Shown here in pieces: positions 1-6,000 of a DNA stretch of 64,000 bases. Within the stretch, counting starts at the first letter, position 1. Each line of letters starts with the position of its first letter. Position numbers: made by a program. The DNA lies in NCBI RefSeq assembly GCF_053078305.1, contig NZ_CP166879.1; one strand, written 5' to 3'.

Positions 1-3000
1 TATATTACCTCCTAGCAATAATAGAGATAACCTCATATCAAGGTGTCACTGGTAAATAATCGGATAAAAGACAGTATCGGTCGGCGCATAGAGCTTCTTC
101 TATTTCACCAGAAGTGCACAGCAGGAACTACCAATCACACGGTTAGTGTCATGGGTGGAGGATGCGGCCCGTTCTTTCCCTATAACAGGGTTACGCAGTT
201 TCAATCAGTACATGCAGAAAAACCCCTAATTCACATCACTGCAGAAAGCATTTAATAGAAATATACATCGTTTAAGAATTTCAATTAAATCAAGATTATT
301 CTTAAAAATCAGATAATTCACATTTGCATTTTTAGGAAATTATACTATAGTGCACTTAATGTTCTTGCCTTTATTTTCTGAGTAATACTGGATTTGTAAT
401 ACACAACTAAGGTATAAAATGTAATGATCTACATTATAAATGATGAAGTAAGATTCAACTCATCATCTAATAAGTTAACATCACTCCTTACATCAGAGGA
501 AGTGATACTCACTTATCCTGCGGGAAAATGCTTAAAGTTACTTTTAGATAACGCTTATAGTGTCGTGTCACACAATCAATTCTTTGAAAAAGTCTGGAGC
601 GATAGCAGTGCCGAAGTCGCAACCAACACTTTATATCAAAATATATCGATGATAAGACGTTCTTTTCGTGAAATCAGCTCAGCGACGATATTTAATGATG
701 TTATCAGAACGGTGCCCCGTAAAGGCTTCAAAATCAATGAAGAAATCAGCATAACTGTTCTCGACAATAATCACAATGAGAATGAAAGTGTTGAGAGTGA
801 AGAGAATGGTACCCACACTGAAAATATAAATAAAAATCACATTGCAAAAGGTATATTTACCACAAAGAATACATTGCTTATAGTTTGTTTTTTTGCGGCA
901 TGGGGGATAGTGTATATATCTTCTTATTTTTTCGATATGGCTTTTCAAAGCAAATCCCACACTATAAAAAAAATAGATGCTTTCTCAAATTATGCTCAAC
1001 ACCCTACTCAGGAAGGATGCAGTTATTTCTATGATAATAAATACTTTAATTCCGTAGACATGTTATCACCGATTATTGAAAAATTGCAGAAGATGGAAAT
1101 TAACTGCAAAATACATCCTTACATTTACATTGCAACAAATGATAGCATGAGCGGATTTTATGCTTTCACCTGTAGTCAGATGTTAAACTCTGAATCACCA
1201 AATAATTGCAACTCTCTCTATTATAAAGCGGAGTAATCATATGACTCAAAGATATTTTCTGTTTGCGGGAATAATTTTATGTGCTTTTATTGCAGCAATT
1301 CTGAGCCATATTGCGTTTCATCATGCCAATGAACCAGCAGAGCAAAACATATCATGTAATGCCCATGTTATTAATTTCACCGATCATACAAAAATGGATC
1401 AATATTTTTCGTTAAATATGATTTCTGAAAATAACACAGGAAACATGTATCTCACGGGCGCATACACGGTAGATGGAAAAAAGATGGGCTTCATCCGCCG
1501 ATATGTGAGTTTTACATACAAGAAATTCCGTGATACCGTTTACTTCACCACTGTTAAAATACAAAAAATACAAAAAGATGATAACATTAGTGATGAAATC
1601 CTTGAAAATATCACTTCTGATTTTTTCATAAAAGTAGACACCTCAATTAATTTTTATGTTACACGTCAAAATGATTACAACTACGTATTCTCTACAGGCA
1701 GGACACCACGCTTCATATGTATTTCCCACTAACAGCATTGTTGCTTCTGGCGTTTGTCACCAGTTAATAACCTTCTGATGGCTTTGTTTATATTTTAAGG
1801 CAATAAAAAACCATTCCAATATTGGTTAATTATTTATCTGTTTACATACCATTGATAAAACTCTGTCGCTTTCATTGGTTTTGCATATAAGTATCCCTGA
1901 ACTAATGTCACGTTATTATGAATAAGATATTCCGCCTGGTGAGGAGTACTGACACCTTCTGCAATCGTTATCAAATTGAGTCGATTACTCAGCTTAATAA
2001 TAATATCTAAAACTGGCGTTTCGTCTTCCGCTGTAGTGAGTGTGTCTATAAAGCTTTTATCTATTTTAAGATAATCAACAGACAACTTTTGCAGAAGGCC
2101 AAGGGAACAATATCCCGTGCCAAAATCATCAACTGCAAATTCACAGCCATGGATCCTTAATTCATTTATTTTCTGTAATGCAAGATCAGTATCTTCAACC
2201 AGATTGCGTTCGGTAATCTCAAGAACAATGTTAAATTTATCAGATATTTCATTTTTAATATGTAAAACATCAGCAACAAAATCAGGATGTGCAAGATGCT
2301 CCGCGGCAATATTTATCCCAAGGTGAAACGGCTTTTTCACTTTCCAGCTTTGTACATCCTGAATAATCAGTTCAAAGAGATGCTTAGTTAACGGTATAAT
2401 TAAATTTTCCTCTTCTGCAGCGCGGATAAAAACTACCGGAGATATATTTTTACCATCTTCGCGTTGCCAACGCATTAACGCCTCAACCCCCAGACACGCT
2501 TTGGTTGTCGTGTCACATACTGGTTGATAATGCACAGAAAATTCTCCGGATGACATTCCTTTCTTAATTTCTTCTGCCAGGGACATTTTCCGAGATATCC
2601 AGCGCTGCCATAAGAAGTACAGAATAAAAGAAAGAAGAATAGATAATGGAAGAATGTAAAATACATTACTAATGACATAGGGATATAATGAAATCATCGG
2701 CGTAGTAACTGTAAGACTAGCCTGACTGATCGCAGAATTAAAATCTTTTTTTAACATATATAACTTGTCATTATTATTTACACCACTAATAATTGCAGGC
2801 CCTTCAGTAAAGCTAAGAGAAAATGAATCATCATTCTCATCATCAAGAACATCCATCAGATCATAGATATATCGTGACTCTACAATACTAAAAGCTGTCA
2901 TATCATTCCCTATTGGCATAAGGAACACTATGGCTGTTTTACCTGGTACAAAACTTGTACCGCTAATTGATACTATGCGTGATTCTTTATTTTTATTGTG

Positions 3001-6000
3001 AAAGCTCGTACCGTAAACATCGTTAACATTCATTTTTTTGAAACCGCTAACTGAAGAACATATTTGGAAATTATTTTCTATAAGCCCCGTTGTTCGAACA
3101 TAGGGGGTCAATGCTCCGTTAGCAATCAATTGTTCCAGGATATCTTTGCAGGGTTTCATCACCAGAATAGAAGTAAGCTTTGTCGTATGTTTTACAATTT
3201 GCGTAACATTATCAAGCTGTTTTAACAGAATACCGGCGGTAATTGTCGTATCTCGATTCATTTGAAATACTGACATAGCAAACGACAGTAACACCCCCAG
3301 AATGCCTGGTATTATAATGAGTACAAACATTTTTTTGTTGAATACCATACATGTTTCCCCACGCATCAGGGTGATGCAACCTAAGAAATTATAGTACAAT
3401 TGCCAGTAAAAGCGGGTGATAGCAGACTGATCAATGATAAGCATTTAAGATCATATAGTACTATGATATTTCTGAAAATTGTTACGCATGTCTGCGAATA
3501 GCTATTTAGCGCTTACCAAAATCACCCGCTAAAATGCCGCTTTATGGTGACTCACAAAAATTCACCACATCCCTCACAACCACCTTATTACGCCCGGTCT
3601 CTTTCGCCTCGTATAGTGCGTTATCAGCCAGTCGATAGATCTCATTCGGGTTTAACGCATTTCCCTGAGTCACAACAGCGCCAATACTAATCGTCACTTT
3701 TTGTGGTATGGCGTATTCAGGATTATCACCAGTTAAACGCTCAACATTTTCCCGAATCCTTTCCGCTAAAGCTTTCGCACGTTCAGTATCGATGTCCGTC
3801 AGCAAGACGCCAAACTCTTCGCCGCCGACGCGCGCAAAAAGGTCATCTGGCCGTATGCTTTTCCCAATGATATTCACCACTGTTTTTATCACCTGATCGC
3901 CAATCGGATGCCCCCAGGTGTCGTTGACTTTTTTGAAGTGGTCGATATCCATAAGCATGACGCAATAAGGCGTTTTTTTGGCCGATGCTGATTGAACCGT
4001 CAGTTCATTAAAAAAATAATTTCTGTTAAATATATTGGTTAAGGGATCGCGATGTGCAATGTCCTTTGTTACTCGTAGCGCACTGAATATATGGCACATA
4101 AATATTACCATAACGGTTAACTTACTGACTACTTCAATAGTGCGACTAATATACCAAATGGACACGCTATACCTGCTCATAAATAAAAGAGAGACATTGT
4201 ACAGTACGGCACAAAAAGCAATCACCGTCACTCCATTCCAGATATCATAGCGTAAACCATTAAAGTATAGATTAACCGAAAGCAAGGTTAACCACATGAA
4301 AATCATTATGGTAACATATGAAGCTTTCCAAACCACTTGACCATTTTCATTGGTTAACTCGGCAATGTGTAAATCGTAGCTCTCATAATGGCTAGAAAGT
4401 ATGTGAGCAACTATCGGCCCCCCAAGAACAAAAAACAAACTTATGCACAAAGTCATTTTTTTGGAAAATAAATTGCGCTGTTTTGTGTTTTCACTAACTT
4501 TATTCACCAATGCCAGAAATATTAATATGCACAAACTCATCTGACGAAACAAATAATAAATTGCAATGTCATTTTGAACAACACTGCTTGTCAAACGCCC
4601 CTCAATCATTTGCTGAATGATAATGACGGTTTTAACAAAGTAAATCAAACAACTCAGAAAAGCCAAACTAAGTATACAGTTTGAAAATTGCCTACGGTCA
4701 TAAATGAAATACAACTGCATAAAAATAAATGCAACAGTATCGATAAAAAATAAAGCAATCATTACCATCAGATAGGTTGATAGTGGAACAACCTCCTCAA
4801 CGCCTGGCTGATTAAACCAACTATTCACCAAAACCAAAGCAAGCCCAAACAATAAGCTCACTAAGACAGTACTACTAATTCTCAAATAGTCTTTTTCCAT
4901 AAAGCTACACCAACCTGTAGGTTGTAGATCCCTTTCTATTATTAATAGATATAAGAACTGTACAGTTGTCAATATGAAAACCCACTCACAAACAATACCG
5001 ATGATGATAGTTGCAGGCCGCAATTATTATTACCTTAGTGCTTTATACATTCTTTGCGACAAGACAGGCTTGCAAATATTTATAAATGGTTATAAGGAAA
5101 TCCTTATAAAACATTCATTCATAGATATATTAGGAATAACAATTGAATCCGTGAGTACAGTAACGCTGCATTTCATCAGGACTTTCGAAAAATCCGAAAT
5201 CATGCATCGGAATTTACTGATTTAATTATTTTACTCCTAATTTATTTTGAAAAAGGCATTGGGATTTATGCCGTATTCCTGAAGATCCTCATCATTGGAA
5301 TGGATTTTCGGGCGAGAAAAGGATTTTATATGGACACTCTGCTCATCATTTCTTCTTCTCATCATCAACAATTCACGTCTCTCTTCCGCGTTTAATAACG
5401 GATTATGAGGTGCAAAAAAATATCTTTCTTTTCAGTTACCTGTCATTAGATACAGAGAGAGATTTTGGCAATACATGGAGTAATACAGGATGTATTCAAG
5501 TAGCAGAAAAAGGTGCCCGCAAACCAAATGGGCTTTGAAAATTCTTACTGCCGCATTTTTAGCAGCGAGTCCCGCGGCGAAGAGTGCCGTTAATAACGCC
5601 TATGATGCATTGATTATTGAAGCTCGCAAGGGAAATACTCAGCCAGTTTTGTTATGGTTTGCACAAAAATCAGCACTCAGTAATAACCAAATTGCTGACT
5701 GGTTACAGATTGCCTTATGGGCCGGGCAAGATAAACAGGTTATTACCGTTTACAACCGCTACCGTTATCAGCAATTACCAGCGCGTGGTTATGCAGCTGT
5801 CGCAGTCGCTTATCGTAACCTGCAACAATGGCAAAACTCGCTTACACTGTGGCAAAAGGCGCTCTCTCTGGAGCCGCAAAATAAGGATTATCAACGGGGA
5901 CAAATTTTAACCCTGGCAGATGCGGGTCACTATGATACTGCGCTGGTTAAACTTAAGCAGCTTAACTCTGGAGCACCGGACAAAGCCAATTTACTCGCAG

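What the first reader, a model, noticed from the sequence alone, without database searches (positions are those of the whole stretch)
424..4900. ToxR/ToxS-like regulator pair joined to a c-di-GMP phosphodiesterase and cyclase beside the pga biofilm operon
A membrane-bound winged-helix regulator and a small periplasmic partner lie convergent to a CSS-motif EAL phosphodiesterase. That PDE directly follows the diguanylate cyclase dgcT, which abuts pgaABCD (PGA synthesis is c-di-GMP-activated via PgaCD). The CSS-EAL gene replaces the IS3/ycdU content found here in K-12. A cyclase, a redox-sensitive PDE and a periplasmic-sensing regulator are well placed to tune PGA production and virulence gene expression. 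Whether the ToxS-like protein is a functional partner is unexplored as far as I can tell.
Basis: partly seen in the sequence, partly recalled or inferred. Interest (0 to 1): 0.55.

Follow-up and report, generated by a model that had tools for sequence, protein, structure and literature searches.

The report
Known EHEC island edge: GrvA–FidL, PdeT, DgcT
The genes are real and correctly read, but this is the already described right-hand end of E. coli O-island 47 (virulence regulator GrvA with its FidL-like partner, the c-di-GMP phosphodiesterase PdeT/VmpA, then the core dgcT and pgaABCD genes), so the finding is ordinary apart from an untested idea that the regulator and the c-di-GMP enzymes work together.

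Summary
Observation confirmed. Window 424-1236 (+) encodes a membrane-anchored winged-helix regulator. 1241-1732 (+) encodes a small bitopic partner. 1834-3348/3444 (-) encodes a CSS-EAL phosphodiesterase, 3542-4900 (-) is dgcT, and pgaABCD starts at 5490.

All of it is already known. The segment is 98.4% identical to E. coli O157:H7, and it is the right end of O-island 47. The regulator is GrvA (269/270 identical). The partner is the FidL-like protein ECs1273 (162/163). The phosphodiesterase is PdeT/VmpA (530/536).

Kinch et al. 2022 already list GrvA/FidL as a VtrA/VtrC-ToxR/ToxS-type co-component cassette, with a modelled complex. Richter et al. 2014 already show pdeT inserted downstream of ycdT, beside pga.

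My own models agree. The partner folds as a ToxS/VtrC-like barrel (pLDDT 94.9). A fused, paired model with GrvA's periplasmic domain gives pTM 0.81.

One detail is wrong. ycdU is retained at the far end of the island, and K-12's IS3 plus the ymdE fragment mark a deletion of the whole 31.7-kb island.

The proposed functional coupling of GrvA/FidL to PdeT/DgcT/PGA remains untested. A 50-species synteny census gives only weak, non-significant support.

Novelty: already known. Interest: low.

The parts
291..346 (+). Candidate grvA control region: an imperfect palindrome CAAGATTATTCTTA (291-304) that resembles an RcsAB box, followed by sigma-70-like hexamers TTCACA (317-322) and TATACT (341-346).
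   Evidence: Sequence, promoter scan and pattern search. The box match has 3 mismatches and is not above chance in the window (6 found against 3.7 expected). Reviews report that RcsB activates grvA. This is weak, position-only evidence.
424..1236 (+). grvA: a ToxR-family transmembrane transcription regulator (270 aa). It has a winged helix at 25-103, a TM span at 151-169 and a periplasmic domain at about 170-270 with Cys199/228/250/262.
   Evidence: Pfam Trans_reg_C, E 4e-11. 269/270 identical to the O157:H7 protein at the same island position. 32% identical to K-12 YqeI. Sequence match to the PDB ToxR DNA-binding domain, E 3.8e-7. TM span and Cys positions. The four Cys are invariant in alignment A2. 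dN/dS 0.07-0.11.
1241..1732 (+). FidL/YqeJ-family co-component (163 aa; ECs1273 homologue). It has an N-terminal TM helix at 6-24 and a periplasmic eight-stranded lipocalin-like barrel closed by the conserved Cys39-Cys160 pair. GGAG at 1230-1233 lies inside the end of grvA, 7 nt before its ATG.
   Evidence: 162/163 identical to O157:H7. Its cluster is named FidL and carries PF27292/PF15941. 21% identical to YqeJ, E 3e-17. C39 is invariant and C160 at least 90% conserved in 67 relatives. AF2 pLDDT 94.9. Foldseek top hits are ToxS and VtrC. Junction sequence. dN/dS 0.13.
1733..1833 (.). A 101-nt gap between the convergent fidL-like and pdeT genes, with no convincing intrinsic terminator on either strand.
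   Evidence: Terminator scan. Folds have z-scores of 0.06 and -0.62.
1834..3348 (-). pdeT (vmpA): a CSS-domain c-di-GMP phosphodiesterase, 504 aa from the probable start at 3348 (the longest ORF runs to 3444). In long-ORF numbering it has TM1 at 39-57, a periplasmic CSS domain with Cys99 and the C129-S-S motif, TM2 at 257-275, and an EAL domain with EALMR, EITE, DDFGTG, KID, EGVS and QG.
   Evidence: Pfam CSS-motif and EAL. NCBIfam NF007839 scores 312 bits, below its 461-bit cut-off, so this is a distinct paralogue. 530/536 identical to O157:H7. Motifs. Start-site argument. The name pdeT appears in a RefSeq record. Literature.
3542..4900 (-). dgcT (ycdT): a diguanylate cyclase with a MASE4 membrane domain (eight hydrophobic spans) and a GGDEF domain carrying GGEEF at 359 and the I-site RPDD at 350. 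It is a core gene, present with or without the island.
   Evidence: Pfam, motifs and RefSeq annotation. 4,249 of 5,426 genomes match the dgcT-pgaA part, but only about 410 carry the island genes.
3531..3579 (.). Island boundary zone at the 3' end of dgcT. Homology to K-12-type genomes ends at 3531, where IS3 begins in K-12. Homology to genomes with dgcT directly beside serX ends at 3576-3579, inside the last codons of dgcT.
5490..11673 (+). pgaABCD, intact (807, 672, 441 and 137 aa) and divergent from dgcT across a 589-nt control region.
   Evidence: ORFs; annotation of near-identical genomes.

Best explanation
This is the right-hand end of the E. coli genomic island known as O-island 47 (OI-47), in a non-O157 strain, joined to the core dgcT-pgaABCD locus. 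It holds three separately described units.

(1) grvA and the FidL-like gene form a co-component transmembrane transcription regulator of the VtrA/VtrC-ToxR/ToxS type. GrvA sits in the inner membrane with its winged helix in the cytoplasm. Its roughly 100-residue periplasmic domain pairs with the lipocalin-like barrel of the partner. That pairing, and probably a small hydrophobic ligand or the disulfide state, sets GrvA's activity. In EHEC, GrvA is activated by RcsB. It indirectly represses gadW/gadE and thereby raises LEE expression.

(2) PdeT/VmpA is a sixth CSS-domain phosphodiesterase. By analogy with PdeC, its activity is gated by a periplasmic disulfide. It lowers c-di-GMP, which favours motility over biofilm.

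(3) DgcT makes c-di-GMP next to pgaABCD, whose PgaCD synthase is c-di-GMP-activated.

Shown here: identities, domain architecture, fold, conservation of the regulator-partner pairing, and island structure. Inferred: heterodimer formation, ligand or redox sensing, and the enzymes' activities in this strain.

Most likely the regulator pair and the two enzymes are neighbours because of how the island is built. They are not a proven single circuit. The only straightforward local link is DgcT/PdeT antagonism near pga.
For: - Identity and synteny: window 1-5500 is 98.4% identical to O157:H7 and 99.9% to strain ET350, with the same flanking fimbrial, SDR and fatty-acid-type genes. GrvA is 269/270 identical, the partner 162/163 and PdeT 530/536. 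The island measures 31,741 bp here, against 31,727 bp published for OI-47, z1528-z1556, with grvA = z1531.
- Architecture.
- Partner fold: AF2 pLDDT 94.9. The top PDB matches are ToxS and VtrC, with TM-scores normalised to the target (TMt) of 0.59-0.70.
- Pairing: GGAG inside the end of grvA and a 4-nt gap. In a 50-species census, about 38 of 50 GrvA/YqeI-type regulators have a YqeJ/FidL-family gene immediately downstream on the same strand. A fused model built on a paired alignment gives pTM 0.81, with both domains above 90 pLDDT and only the linker disordered.
- Purifying selection acts on all three island genes.
- Literature: GrvA/FidL is listed as a co-component cassette with a modelled complex. 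GrvA biology. PdeT/VmpA as an extra CSS phosphodiesterase inserted downstream of ycdT.
Against: - No experiment on the GrvA-FidL interaction or on its ligand turned up in the library. The primary GrvA and VmpA papers could not be read.
- The pTM argument for a complex is indirect, because the tool returns neither contacts nor PAE.
- The partner had no Pfam-A or NCBIfam hit in my own scans. Its family assignment rests on precomputed Pfam tags, BLASTP to YqeJ and the fold.
- 'Mere neighbours' is a default, not a demonstration. A second locus has a FidL-like gene tail-to-tail with a CSS-EAL gene. Several cassettes lie beside DosC-like cyclases.
Confidence: 0.8

Rival explanations
1. Integrated circuit. 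GrvA/FidL senses a periplasmic cue and directly controls transcription of pdeT and/or dgcT-pga. The four genes would then form one module that sets local c-di-GMP and PGA output together with virulence genes.
For: - ToxR-type regulators often control adjacent genes (MarT-misL, PsaE-psaA, VtrA-vtrB).
- grvA-fidL-pdeT travels as one block in 409 of the 414 genomes that have any of it.
- GrvA/YqeI-type cassettes lie beside c-di-GMP genes in Yokenella, Trabulsiella, Serratia and three metagenomic or unnamed genomic loci, on several branches of the regulator tree.
Against: - The cyclases beside those cassettes are all DosC orthologues (44-75% identical). That is one ancestral locus, leaving about three independent associations among roughly 25 lineages. 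By my rough binomial estimate this is p about 0.08, so not significant.
- GrvA's closest relative (50% identical, same upstream genes) has no phosphodiesterase downstream.
- dgcT is core, not island.
- The O145:H28 lineage has lost dgcT but keeps the other three genes.
- The published GrvA effects reported in the reviews read here are on gadW/gadE/LEE. No paper links GrvA and c-di-GMP.
Confidence: 0.15
2. The FidL-like lipocalin also, or instead, acts on the periplasmic CSS domain of PdeT. It would couple ligand or redox sensing directly to c-di-GMP degradation.
For: In locus L010, a FidL/YqeJ-family gene (33% identical) has no upstream ToxR-like regulator. It lies tail-to-tail, 2 nt from a CSS-EAL gene that is not a PdeT orthologue. 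Both the FidL family and CSS domains carry conserved periplasmic cysteine pairs.
Against: This rests on a single orphan example. In about 38 of 50 census loci the partner is translationally coupled to a regulator and has no EAL neighbour. The fused model already places FidL confidently against GrvA's periplasmic domain. No co-variation or complex test with the CSS domain was possible.
Confidence: 0.04
3. The small downstream ORF is a spurious or decaying reading frame, and GrvA works alone.
For: The ORF has no Pfam-A or NCBIfam hit in my scans, and RefSeq calls it 'hypothetical protein' in most records.
Against: dN/dS is 0.13. There are 78 relatives at E <= 1e-3, with an invariant Cys and near-invariant G/R/F/P positions. 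The AF2 model scores pLDDT 94.9. The gene keeps its position behind the regulator across Enterobacterales. A well-placed GGAG precedes its start.
Confidence: 0.01

Closest known systems
GrvA / FidL-like ECs1273 of E. coli O157:H7 O-island 47 (coTTR 'GrvA-FidL')
   Same: Essentially the same genes: 269/270 and 162/163 identical residues, the same position in the island, the same neighbours and the same 4-nt junction.
   Different: The host is not O157:H7. The best matches are strains ES5 (human, 100% over 424-3444) and ET350 (frog, 99.9% over 1-5500). The island segment occurs in 414 of 5,426 complete E. coli genomes, including baboon, pig, bovine and environmental isolates. That is wider than the 'O157:H7/O55:H7/O145:H28 only' statement in a review.
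YqeI/YqeJ (E. coli ETT2 remnant) and MarT/FidL (Salmonella SPI-3)
   Same: Same family and architecture. GrvA is 32% identical to YqeI and the partner 21% identical to YqeJ. All periplasmic cysteines are conserved, and the partner gene follows directly downstream.
   Different: These are paralogues in other islands with other neighbours (T3SS remnant, autotransporter). GrvA-FidL has a 4-nt gap rather than the overlapping start/stop usual in the family.
Vibrio ToxR/ToxS and VtrA/VtrC (solved periplasmic heterodimers; bile-salt sensing)
   Same: The regulator has the same overall design. The partner has the same barrel fold: Foldseek hits 8u2f, 8alo_B and 5kev_B at E 1e-4 to 8e-4, with TM-scores normalised to the target of 0.63-0.70. 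The DNA-binding domain matches ToxR by sequence.
   Different: The partner shows no detectable sequence similarity to ToxS or VtrC (8-14% identity in the structural alignments, and no profile hit in the PDB). The FidL family has a conserved N-to-C disulfide pair. Its ligand is unknown.
PdeC and the other CSS-domain phosphodiesterases of E. coli K-12; PdeT/VmpA of EDL933 (Z1528)
   Same: TM - CSS periplasmic domain with two Cys - TM - EAL, with a complete catalytic motif set. 530/536 identical to the O157:H7 protein. Named as the sixth CSS phosphodiesterase in Herbst et al. 2018.
   Different: It scores below the PdeC-type NCBIfam equivalog cut-off (312 against 461 bits), so it is a distinct paralogue. 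Redox and proteolytic control have been shown for PdeC and PdeB, not for PdeT.
DgcT (YcdT) - pgaABCD divergent locus of E. coli K-12
   Same: Same genes and arrangement, at 97.8% nucleotide identity.
   Different: In K-12, IS3D follows dgcT. Here the island follows it.

Membership tests
Co-component transmembrane transcription regulators (coTTR: ToxR/ToxS, VtrA/VtrC, PsaE/PsaF, YqeI/YqeJ, GrvA/FidL) | N-terminal cytoplasmic OmpR/PhoB-type winged-helix DNA-binding domain | tested here: met
   Pfam Trans_reg_C at 25-103, E 4e-11. The best match among solved structures by sequence is the ToxR DNA-binding domain, E 3.8e-7.
Co-component transmembrane transcription regulators (coTTR) | A single transmembrane helix followed by a small C-terminal periplasmic domain | tested here: met
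   One hydrophobic span at 151-169, then 100 residues with four Cys that are invariant in the family alignment. In the fused model this domain folds as an alpha/beta unit with pLDDT above 90.
Co-component transmembrane transcription regulators (coTTR) | An adjacent, co-oriented downstream gene for a bitopic protein with a periplasmic lipocalin-like barrel | tested here: met
   4-nt gap with GGAG 7 nt upstream of the start. TM span at 6-24. Eight-stranded barrel at pLDDT 94.9. ToxS and VtrC are the top PDB fold matches. The adjacency is kept in about 38 of 50 species loci.
Co-component transmembrane transcription regulators (coTTR) | The periplasmic domains form a heterodimer | tested here: inconclusive
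   A fused construct with a 35-row paired alignment gives pTM 0.81, with only the linker disordered. That is consistent with the published complex model. No contacts or PAE were available, and no experiment exists.
Co-component transmembrane transcription regulators (coTTR) | Activity responds to a periplasmic ligand such as bile salts | not testable with these tools
   Needs binding and reporter assays.
FidL/YqeJ family (Pfam PF27292 YqeJ_C, PF15941 FidL_like) | Sequence membership and the conserved N-terminal and C-terminal strand cysteines | tested here: met
   Precomputed PF27292 and PF15941 tags on its 90% cluster, and the NCBI name 'FidL'. BLASTP to YqeJ, E 3e-17. C39 is invariant and C160 at least 90% conserved in 67 sequences. 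My own Pfam-A and NCBIfam scans returned nothing, probably because those libraries lack the newer model.
ToxS family in the strict sense (Vibrio ToxS orthologues) | Detectable sequence homology to ToxS | tested here: not met
   No Pfam hit. A profile of 67 relatives finds no ToxS or VtrC chain in the PDB even at E <= 10. Identity in the structural alignments is only 8-14%. The protein is 'ToxS-like' in fold and role only.
GrvA (O157:H7 z1531/ECs1274) | Orthology by sequence and position | tested here: met
   269/270 identical, at the same place in the same island.
CSS-domain c-di-GMP phosphodiesterases (PdeC type); PdeT/VmpA | TM1 - periplasmic CSS domain with two conserved Cys - TM2 - EAL domain with intact catalytic motifs | tested here: met
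   Pfam CSS-motif, E 4e-13, and EAL, E 6e-64. Cys99 and C129SS, TM spans, and EALMR/EITE/DDFGTG/KID/EGVS/QG. 530/536 identical to the O157:H7 protein.
CSS-domain c-di-GMP phosphodiesterases (PdeC type) | DsbA-dependent disulfide inhibition and DegP/DegQ processing | not testable with these tools
   Shown for PdeC and PdeB only.
Diguanylate cyclase DgcT (YcdT) | MASE4 membrane domain plus a GGDEF domain with an active GG(D/E)EF site and an RxxD I-site five residues upstream | tested here: met
   Pfam MASE4, E 4e-68, and GGDEF, E 6e-50. GGEEF at 359 and RPDD at 350. 97.8% nucleotide identity to K-12 dgcT.

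The most novel reading that the evidence does not exclude
GrvA/YqeI-type co-component cassettes may be functionally tied to c-di-GMP turnover. In OI-47 the cassette travels with the CSS-EAL gene pdeT. Cassettes in Yokenella, Trabulsiella and three metagenomic or unnamed genomic loci sit beside a DosC-like cyclase, and in four of those loci (L010, L019, L020, L021) a CSS-EAL gene as well. 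A Serratia cassette is followed 26 nt later by a membrane GGDEF gene. One orphan FidL-like gene lies tail-to-tail with a CSS-EAL gene. If this pattern is real, the lipocalin-like sensor and the disulfide-gated CSS domain would read the same periplasmic state (lipid or redox). Alternatively, the regulator would drive the neighbouring cyclase and phosphodiesterase genes. Either way, virulence regulation and biofilm signalling would be linked.
Probability: 0.15. Interest if true: 0.55.

Novelty: already known. Interest (0 to 1): 0.2.

Why it matters
As filed, it matters little. The genes, their arrangement beside pga, the ToxR/ToxS-like nature of the pair and the phosphodiesterase are all in the literature.

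What remains open is modest but testable:
- whether FidL is required for GrvA signalling, and what it binds;
- whether the island's regulator has any say over the adjacent c-di-GMP enzymes and PGA.

Two by-products are useful for annotation:
- K-12's IS3D/ymdE is a deletion scar of OI-47.
- The grvA-fidL-pdeT block is not confined to EHEC lineages.

Tried and rejected
- Pfam-A and NCBIfam scans of the small partner returned nothing. A profile search of PDB sequences also returned nothing relevant. The family had to be established through YqeJ, precomputed tags and the fold.
I used the regulator alignment instead.
- I looked for an intrinsic terminator between the convergent fidL and pdeT genes and found none.
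- The RcsAB-box-like palindrome at 291-304 is not above chance in the window, so I kept it only as a positional remark.
- The primary papers on GrvA (Morgan 2016) and VmpA (Branchu 2013) are not held. Their content is cited only through reviews.
- The apparent enrichment of c-di-GMP genes next to cassettes shrank on inspection. All the DosC-like neighbours are orthologues, so they count as one lineage. The CSS-EAL neighbours are only 25-41% identical to each other and to PdeT. I therefore did not promote this link to the main explanation.
- The dN/dS values of about 0.6 for fidL against strain XJ6-3 are an artefact of a 9-nt in-frame deletion that shifted my ungapped comparison, so I discarded them.
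- I considered an operon reading of dgcT-pdeT. The genes share a strand with a 193-nt gap. No evidence either way could be obtained.

Full report
**What is in the sequence**

Between 424 and 4900 the window carries four genes.
- A 270-aa protein (424-1236, +) has an OmpR/PhoB-type winged helix at residues 25-103 (Pfam Trans_reg_C, E 4e-11). It has one hydrophobic span at 151-169 and a 100-residue C-terminal domain with four cysteines.
- Four bases after its stop codon a 163-aa ORF begins (1241-1732, +). GGAG lies at 1230-1233, inside the end of the first gene. The ORF has an N-terminal hydrophobic span and cysteines at positions 39 and 160.
- Convergent with it, across 101 nt, is a CSS-motif plus EAL protein (1834-3444 as the longest ORF, -). 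It is followed on the same strand by a MASE4-GGDEF protein (3542-4900, -).
- That cyclase gene is divergent from an intact pgaABCD (5490-11673).

The phosphodiesterase has every catalytic EAL motif and the two CSS-domain cysteines. The cyclase has GGEEF and an RxxD I-site.

The region from 1 to about 3500 is 30-39% G+C, against about 41-51% in pgaA-pgaD.

**What it is**

Megablast places window 1-5500 at 98.4% identity in E. coli O157:H7 and at 99.9% in a frog isolate. The annotated neighbourhoods match. They hold fimbrial genes, an SDR gene, a two-partner-secretion pair and an ACP/ketosynthase cluster to the left, and dgcT, pgaABCD, phoH and efeUOB to the right.

This is the right end of O-island 47. 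A review gives OI-47 as 31,727 bp, z1528-z1556, with grvA = z1531.
- The regulator is GrvA (269/270 identical).
- The small protein is the FidL-like ECs1273 homologue (162/163).
- The phosphodiesterase is PdeT/VmpA (530/536). One RefSeq record even labels the trio 'pdeT / winged helix / YqeJ family protein'.

The literature already covers each element.
- Kinch et al. [quoted passage not shown]
- A 2026 preprint names 'GrvA-FidL' among coTTRs.
- Richter et al. 2014 describe vmpA/pdeT as 'inserted immediately downstream of ycdT', beside the divergent pgaABCD.
- Herbst et al. 2018 count PdeT as an extra CSS phosphodiesterase.
- Reviews summarise GrvA's RcsB-dependent activation and its indirect control of LEE through gadW/gadE.

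**Independent checks of the 'ToxR/ToxS-like' label**
- GrvA's best sequence match among solved structures is the V. cholerae ToxR DNA-binding domain (E 3.8e-7). It is 32% identical to K-12 YqeI over its full length.
- The partner gave no Pfam-A or NCBIfam hit in my scans. However, it is 21% identical to YqeJ (E 3e-17), and its cluster carries precomputed PF27292/PF15941 tags.
- An exhaustive phmmer search found 78 relatives. In an alignment of 67 of them Cys39 is invariant and Cys160 nearly so.
- With that alignment AlphaFold gives a TM helix plus an eight-stranded barrel at pLDDT 94.9. Its best PDB fold matches are ToxS (8u2f, 8alo_B) and VtrC (5kev, 5kew, 8dml).
- Sequence-level membership of the ToxS family is not met. 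The likeness lies in fold and role.

**Is the small protein a real partner?**

Three lines of evidence say yes.
- Selection: dN/dS is 0.13 for the small gene, 0.07-0.11 for grvA and 0.04-0.09 for pdeT among E. coli alleles.
- Synteny: I scanned one genome per species with a regulator alignment and obtained 50 loci across Enterobacterales. With home-made HMMs, about 38 of 50 regulators have a YqeJ/FidL-family gene directly downstream on the same strand, usually overlapping.
- Structure: I fused GrvA(172-270) and FidL(28-163) through a 30-residue Gly-Ser linker, built a paired alignment of 35 cassettes and modelled the fusion. The result has pTM 0.81, both domains above 90 pLDDT and only the linker disordered. 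Two independently tumbling domains of 99 and 136 residues should not reach that pTM, so a defined interface is predicted. This is indirect, because no contact or PAE output was available. It agrees with the published model.

**The K-12 comparison**

- In O157:H7, ycdU is present at the far end of the island.
- K-12's IS3D lies exactly between the point 11 nt past the dgcT stop and a point inside the island's last gene, an ACP S-malonyltransferase.
- K-12's ymdE pseudogene is the 3' 344 nt of that gene. The O157 sequence missing from K-12 measures 31,741 bp.
- The same IS3-plus-truncated-gene arrangement occurs in a non-K-12 strain (Ecol_224).
- A third arrangement has dgcT directly next to serX. 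There, homology breaks inside the last codons of dgcT.

So the K-12 state is a deletion scar of the island. It is not a state into which a phosphodiesterase gene was swapped.

The grvA-fidL-pdeT block occurs in 414 of 5,426 complete genomes. Most are O157:H7. Others include O145:H28 and isolates from baboons, pigs, cattle, frogs and people.

**Is the regulator pair functionally joined to the c-di-GMP genes?**

This is the only part of the finding that is not already in print, so I tested it by synteny.

Hints exist.
- A FidL-family gene with no regulator lies tail-to-tail, 2 nt from a CSS-EAL gene, in one genome.
- Two metagenomic loci have CSS-EAL, a DosC-like cyclase, a regulator and a partner in a row or nearby.
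- In the census, Yokenella, Trabulsiella, one MAG and Serratia proteamaculans have GGDEF genes within about 1.3 kb of the cassette. Yokenella also has a CSS-EAL gene.
- These cassettes fall on several branches of a regulator tree.

On inspection the hints weaken.
- All the DosC-like cyclases are orthologues (44-75% identical), so they represent one ancestral locus.
- The adjacent CSS-EAL proteins are only 25-41% identical to each other and to PdeT.
- That leaves about three independent associations among roughly 25 lineages. Given 25-45 GGDEF/EAL genes per genome (a figure from general knowledge), a rough binomial estimate gives p of about 0.08.
- GrvA's nearest relative (50% identical, same upstream genes) has sugar-metabolism genes downstream instead of a phosphodiesterase.
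- dgcT is a core gene.
- O145:H28 has lost dgcT through a 1,762-bp deletion while keeping the other three genes.
- No paper in the library links GrvA to c-di-GMP.

I therefore rate the integrated-circuit idea as possible but unsupported.

**Mechanism I commit to**

GrvA/FidL is a co-component membrane regulator. Its periplasmic heterodimer, disulfide-stabilised and with a lipocalin-type pocket, sets the activity of the cytoplasmic winged helix. PdeT is a CSS-gated phosphodiesterase that lowers c-di-GMP. DgcT supplies c-di-GMP next to the c-di-GMP-activated PgaCD synthase (established knowledge, Steiner et al. 2013, cited from memory). The two units are neighbours because of how the island is built. 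The identities and architectures are shown. The heterodimer, the ligand or redox sensing and the enzyme activities in this strain are inferred.

**Verdict**

The finding is already known and of low interest. The residual novel reading, a recurrent link between co-component cassettes and c-di-GMP genes, has a probability of about 0.15.

Noticed in passing
L003 9246-10847 (K-12) against L005 17070-18011 and L001 23532 (O157:H7); window 3531: K-12's IS3D plus the ymdE pseudogene is a deletion scar of the whole 31.7-kb O-island 47. ymdE equals the last 344 nt of the island's ACP S-malonyltransferase gene. The same scar is present in a non-K-12 strain (Ecol_224).
   Followed up: yes
L072 (O145:H28 strain 12E115); corresponds to window 3354-5115: A 1,762-bp deletion removes all of dgcT and the region upstream of pdeT. 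It leaves the pdeT ATG (window 3348) 310 nt from pgaA, and pgaB is frameshifted in that strain. This is a natural variant that keeps the phosphodiesterase but loses the cyclase beside pga.
   Followed up: partly
L010 6001-8009 (NCBI GCA_045575435.1): A FidL/YqeJ-family gene with no ToxR-like regulator upstream lies tail-to-tail, 2 nt from a CSS-motif EAL gene that is not a PdeT orthologue. dosC-dosP lie 1.6 kb away.
   Followed up: partly
L019, L020, L021 (Yokenella), L023/L026/L027 (Trabulsiella), L048, L056 (Serratia proteamaculans): GrvA/YqeI-type cassettes sit next to DosC-like diguanylate cyclases. In L019, L020 and L021 they also sit next to CSS-EAL genes. In Serratia the neighbour is a 380-aa membrane GGDEF gene 26 nt downstream. 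The DosC-like genes are orthologous, so this is mostly one ancestral locus.
   Followed up: partly
window about 1559-1576; L073 (strain XJ6-3): The fidL-like gene contains a 9-nt tandem duplication (IQK-IQK). One allele has a single copy, which is an in-frame length polymorphism in the barrel.
   Followed up: no
L001 1-19737 and L005 17070-28001 (interior of O-island 47, outside the window): The island encodes ACP, ketosynthases, FabZ-like and SDR enzymes, AcpS, a malonyltransferase, a LolA-like protein and ABC transporter parts. That points to a lipid-type product made next to a lipocalin-like periplasmic sensor, so the product is a candidate ligand source.
   Followed up: no
window 11728-11921 (+): The only Rfam match in the window at gathering threshold is Ysr251 (189 bits, E 2.5e-51). 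It lies antisense to the 3' end of phoH, just past pgaD.
   Followed up: no
window 32487-42209 (-) and surroundings to about 47000: A 2,808-aa LPD38-domain protein lies with YadA-like, Ail/Lom, bacteriocin and Hok/Gef genes between rutG/ymdF and the core genes. At least 80% of window 31300-47000 is found in only 180 of 5,426 genomes, and it is absent from the otherwise closest strain, ET350.
   Followed up: no
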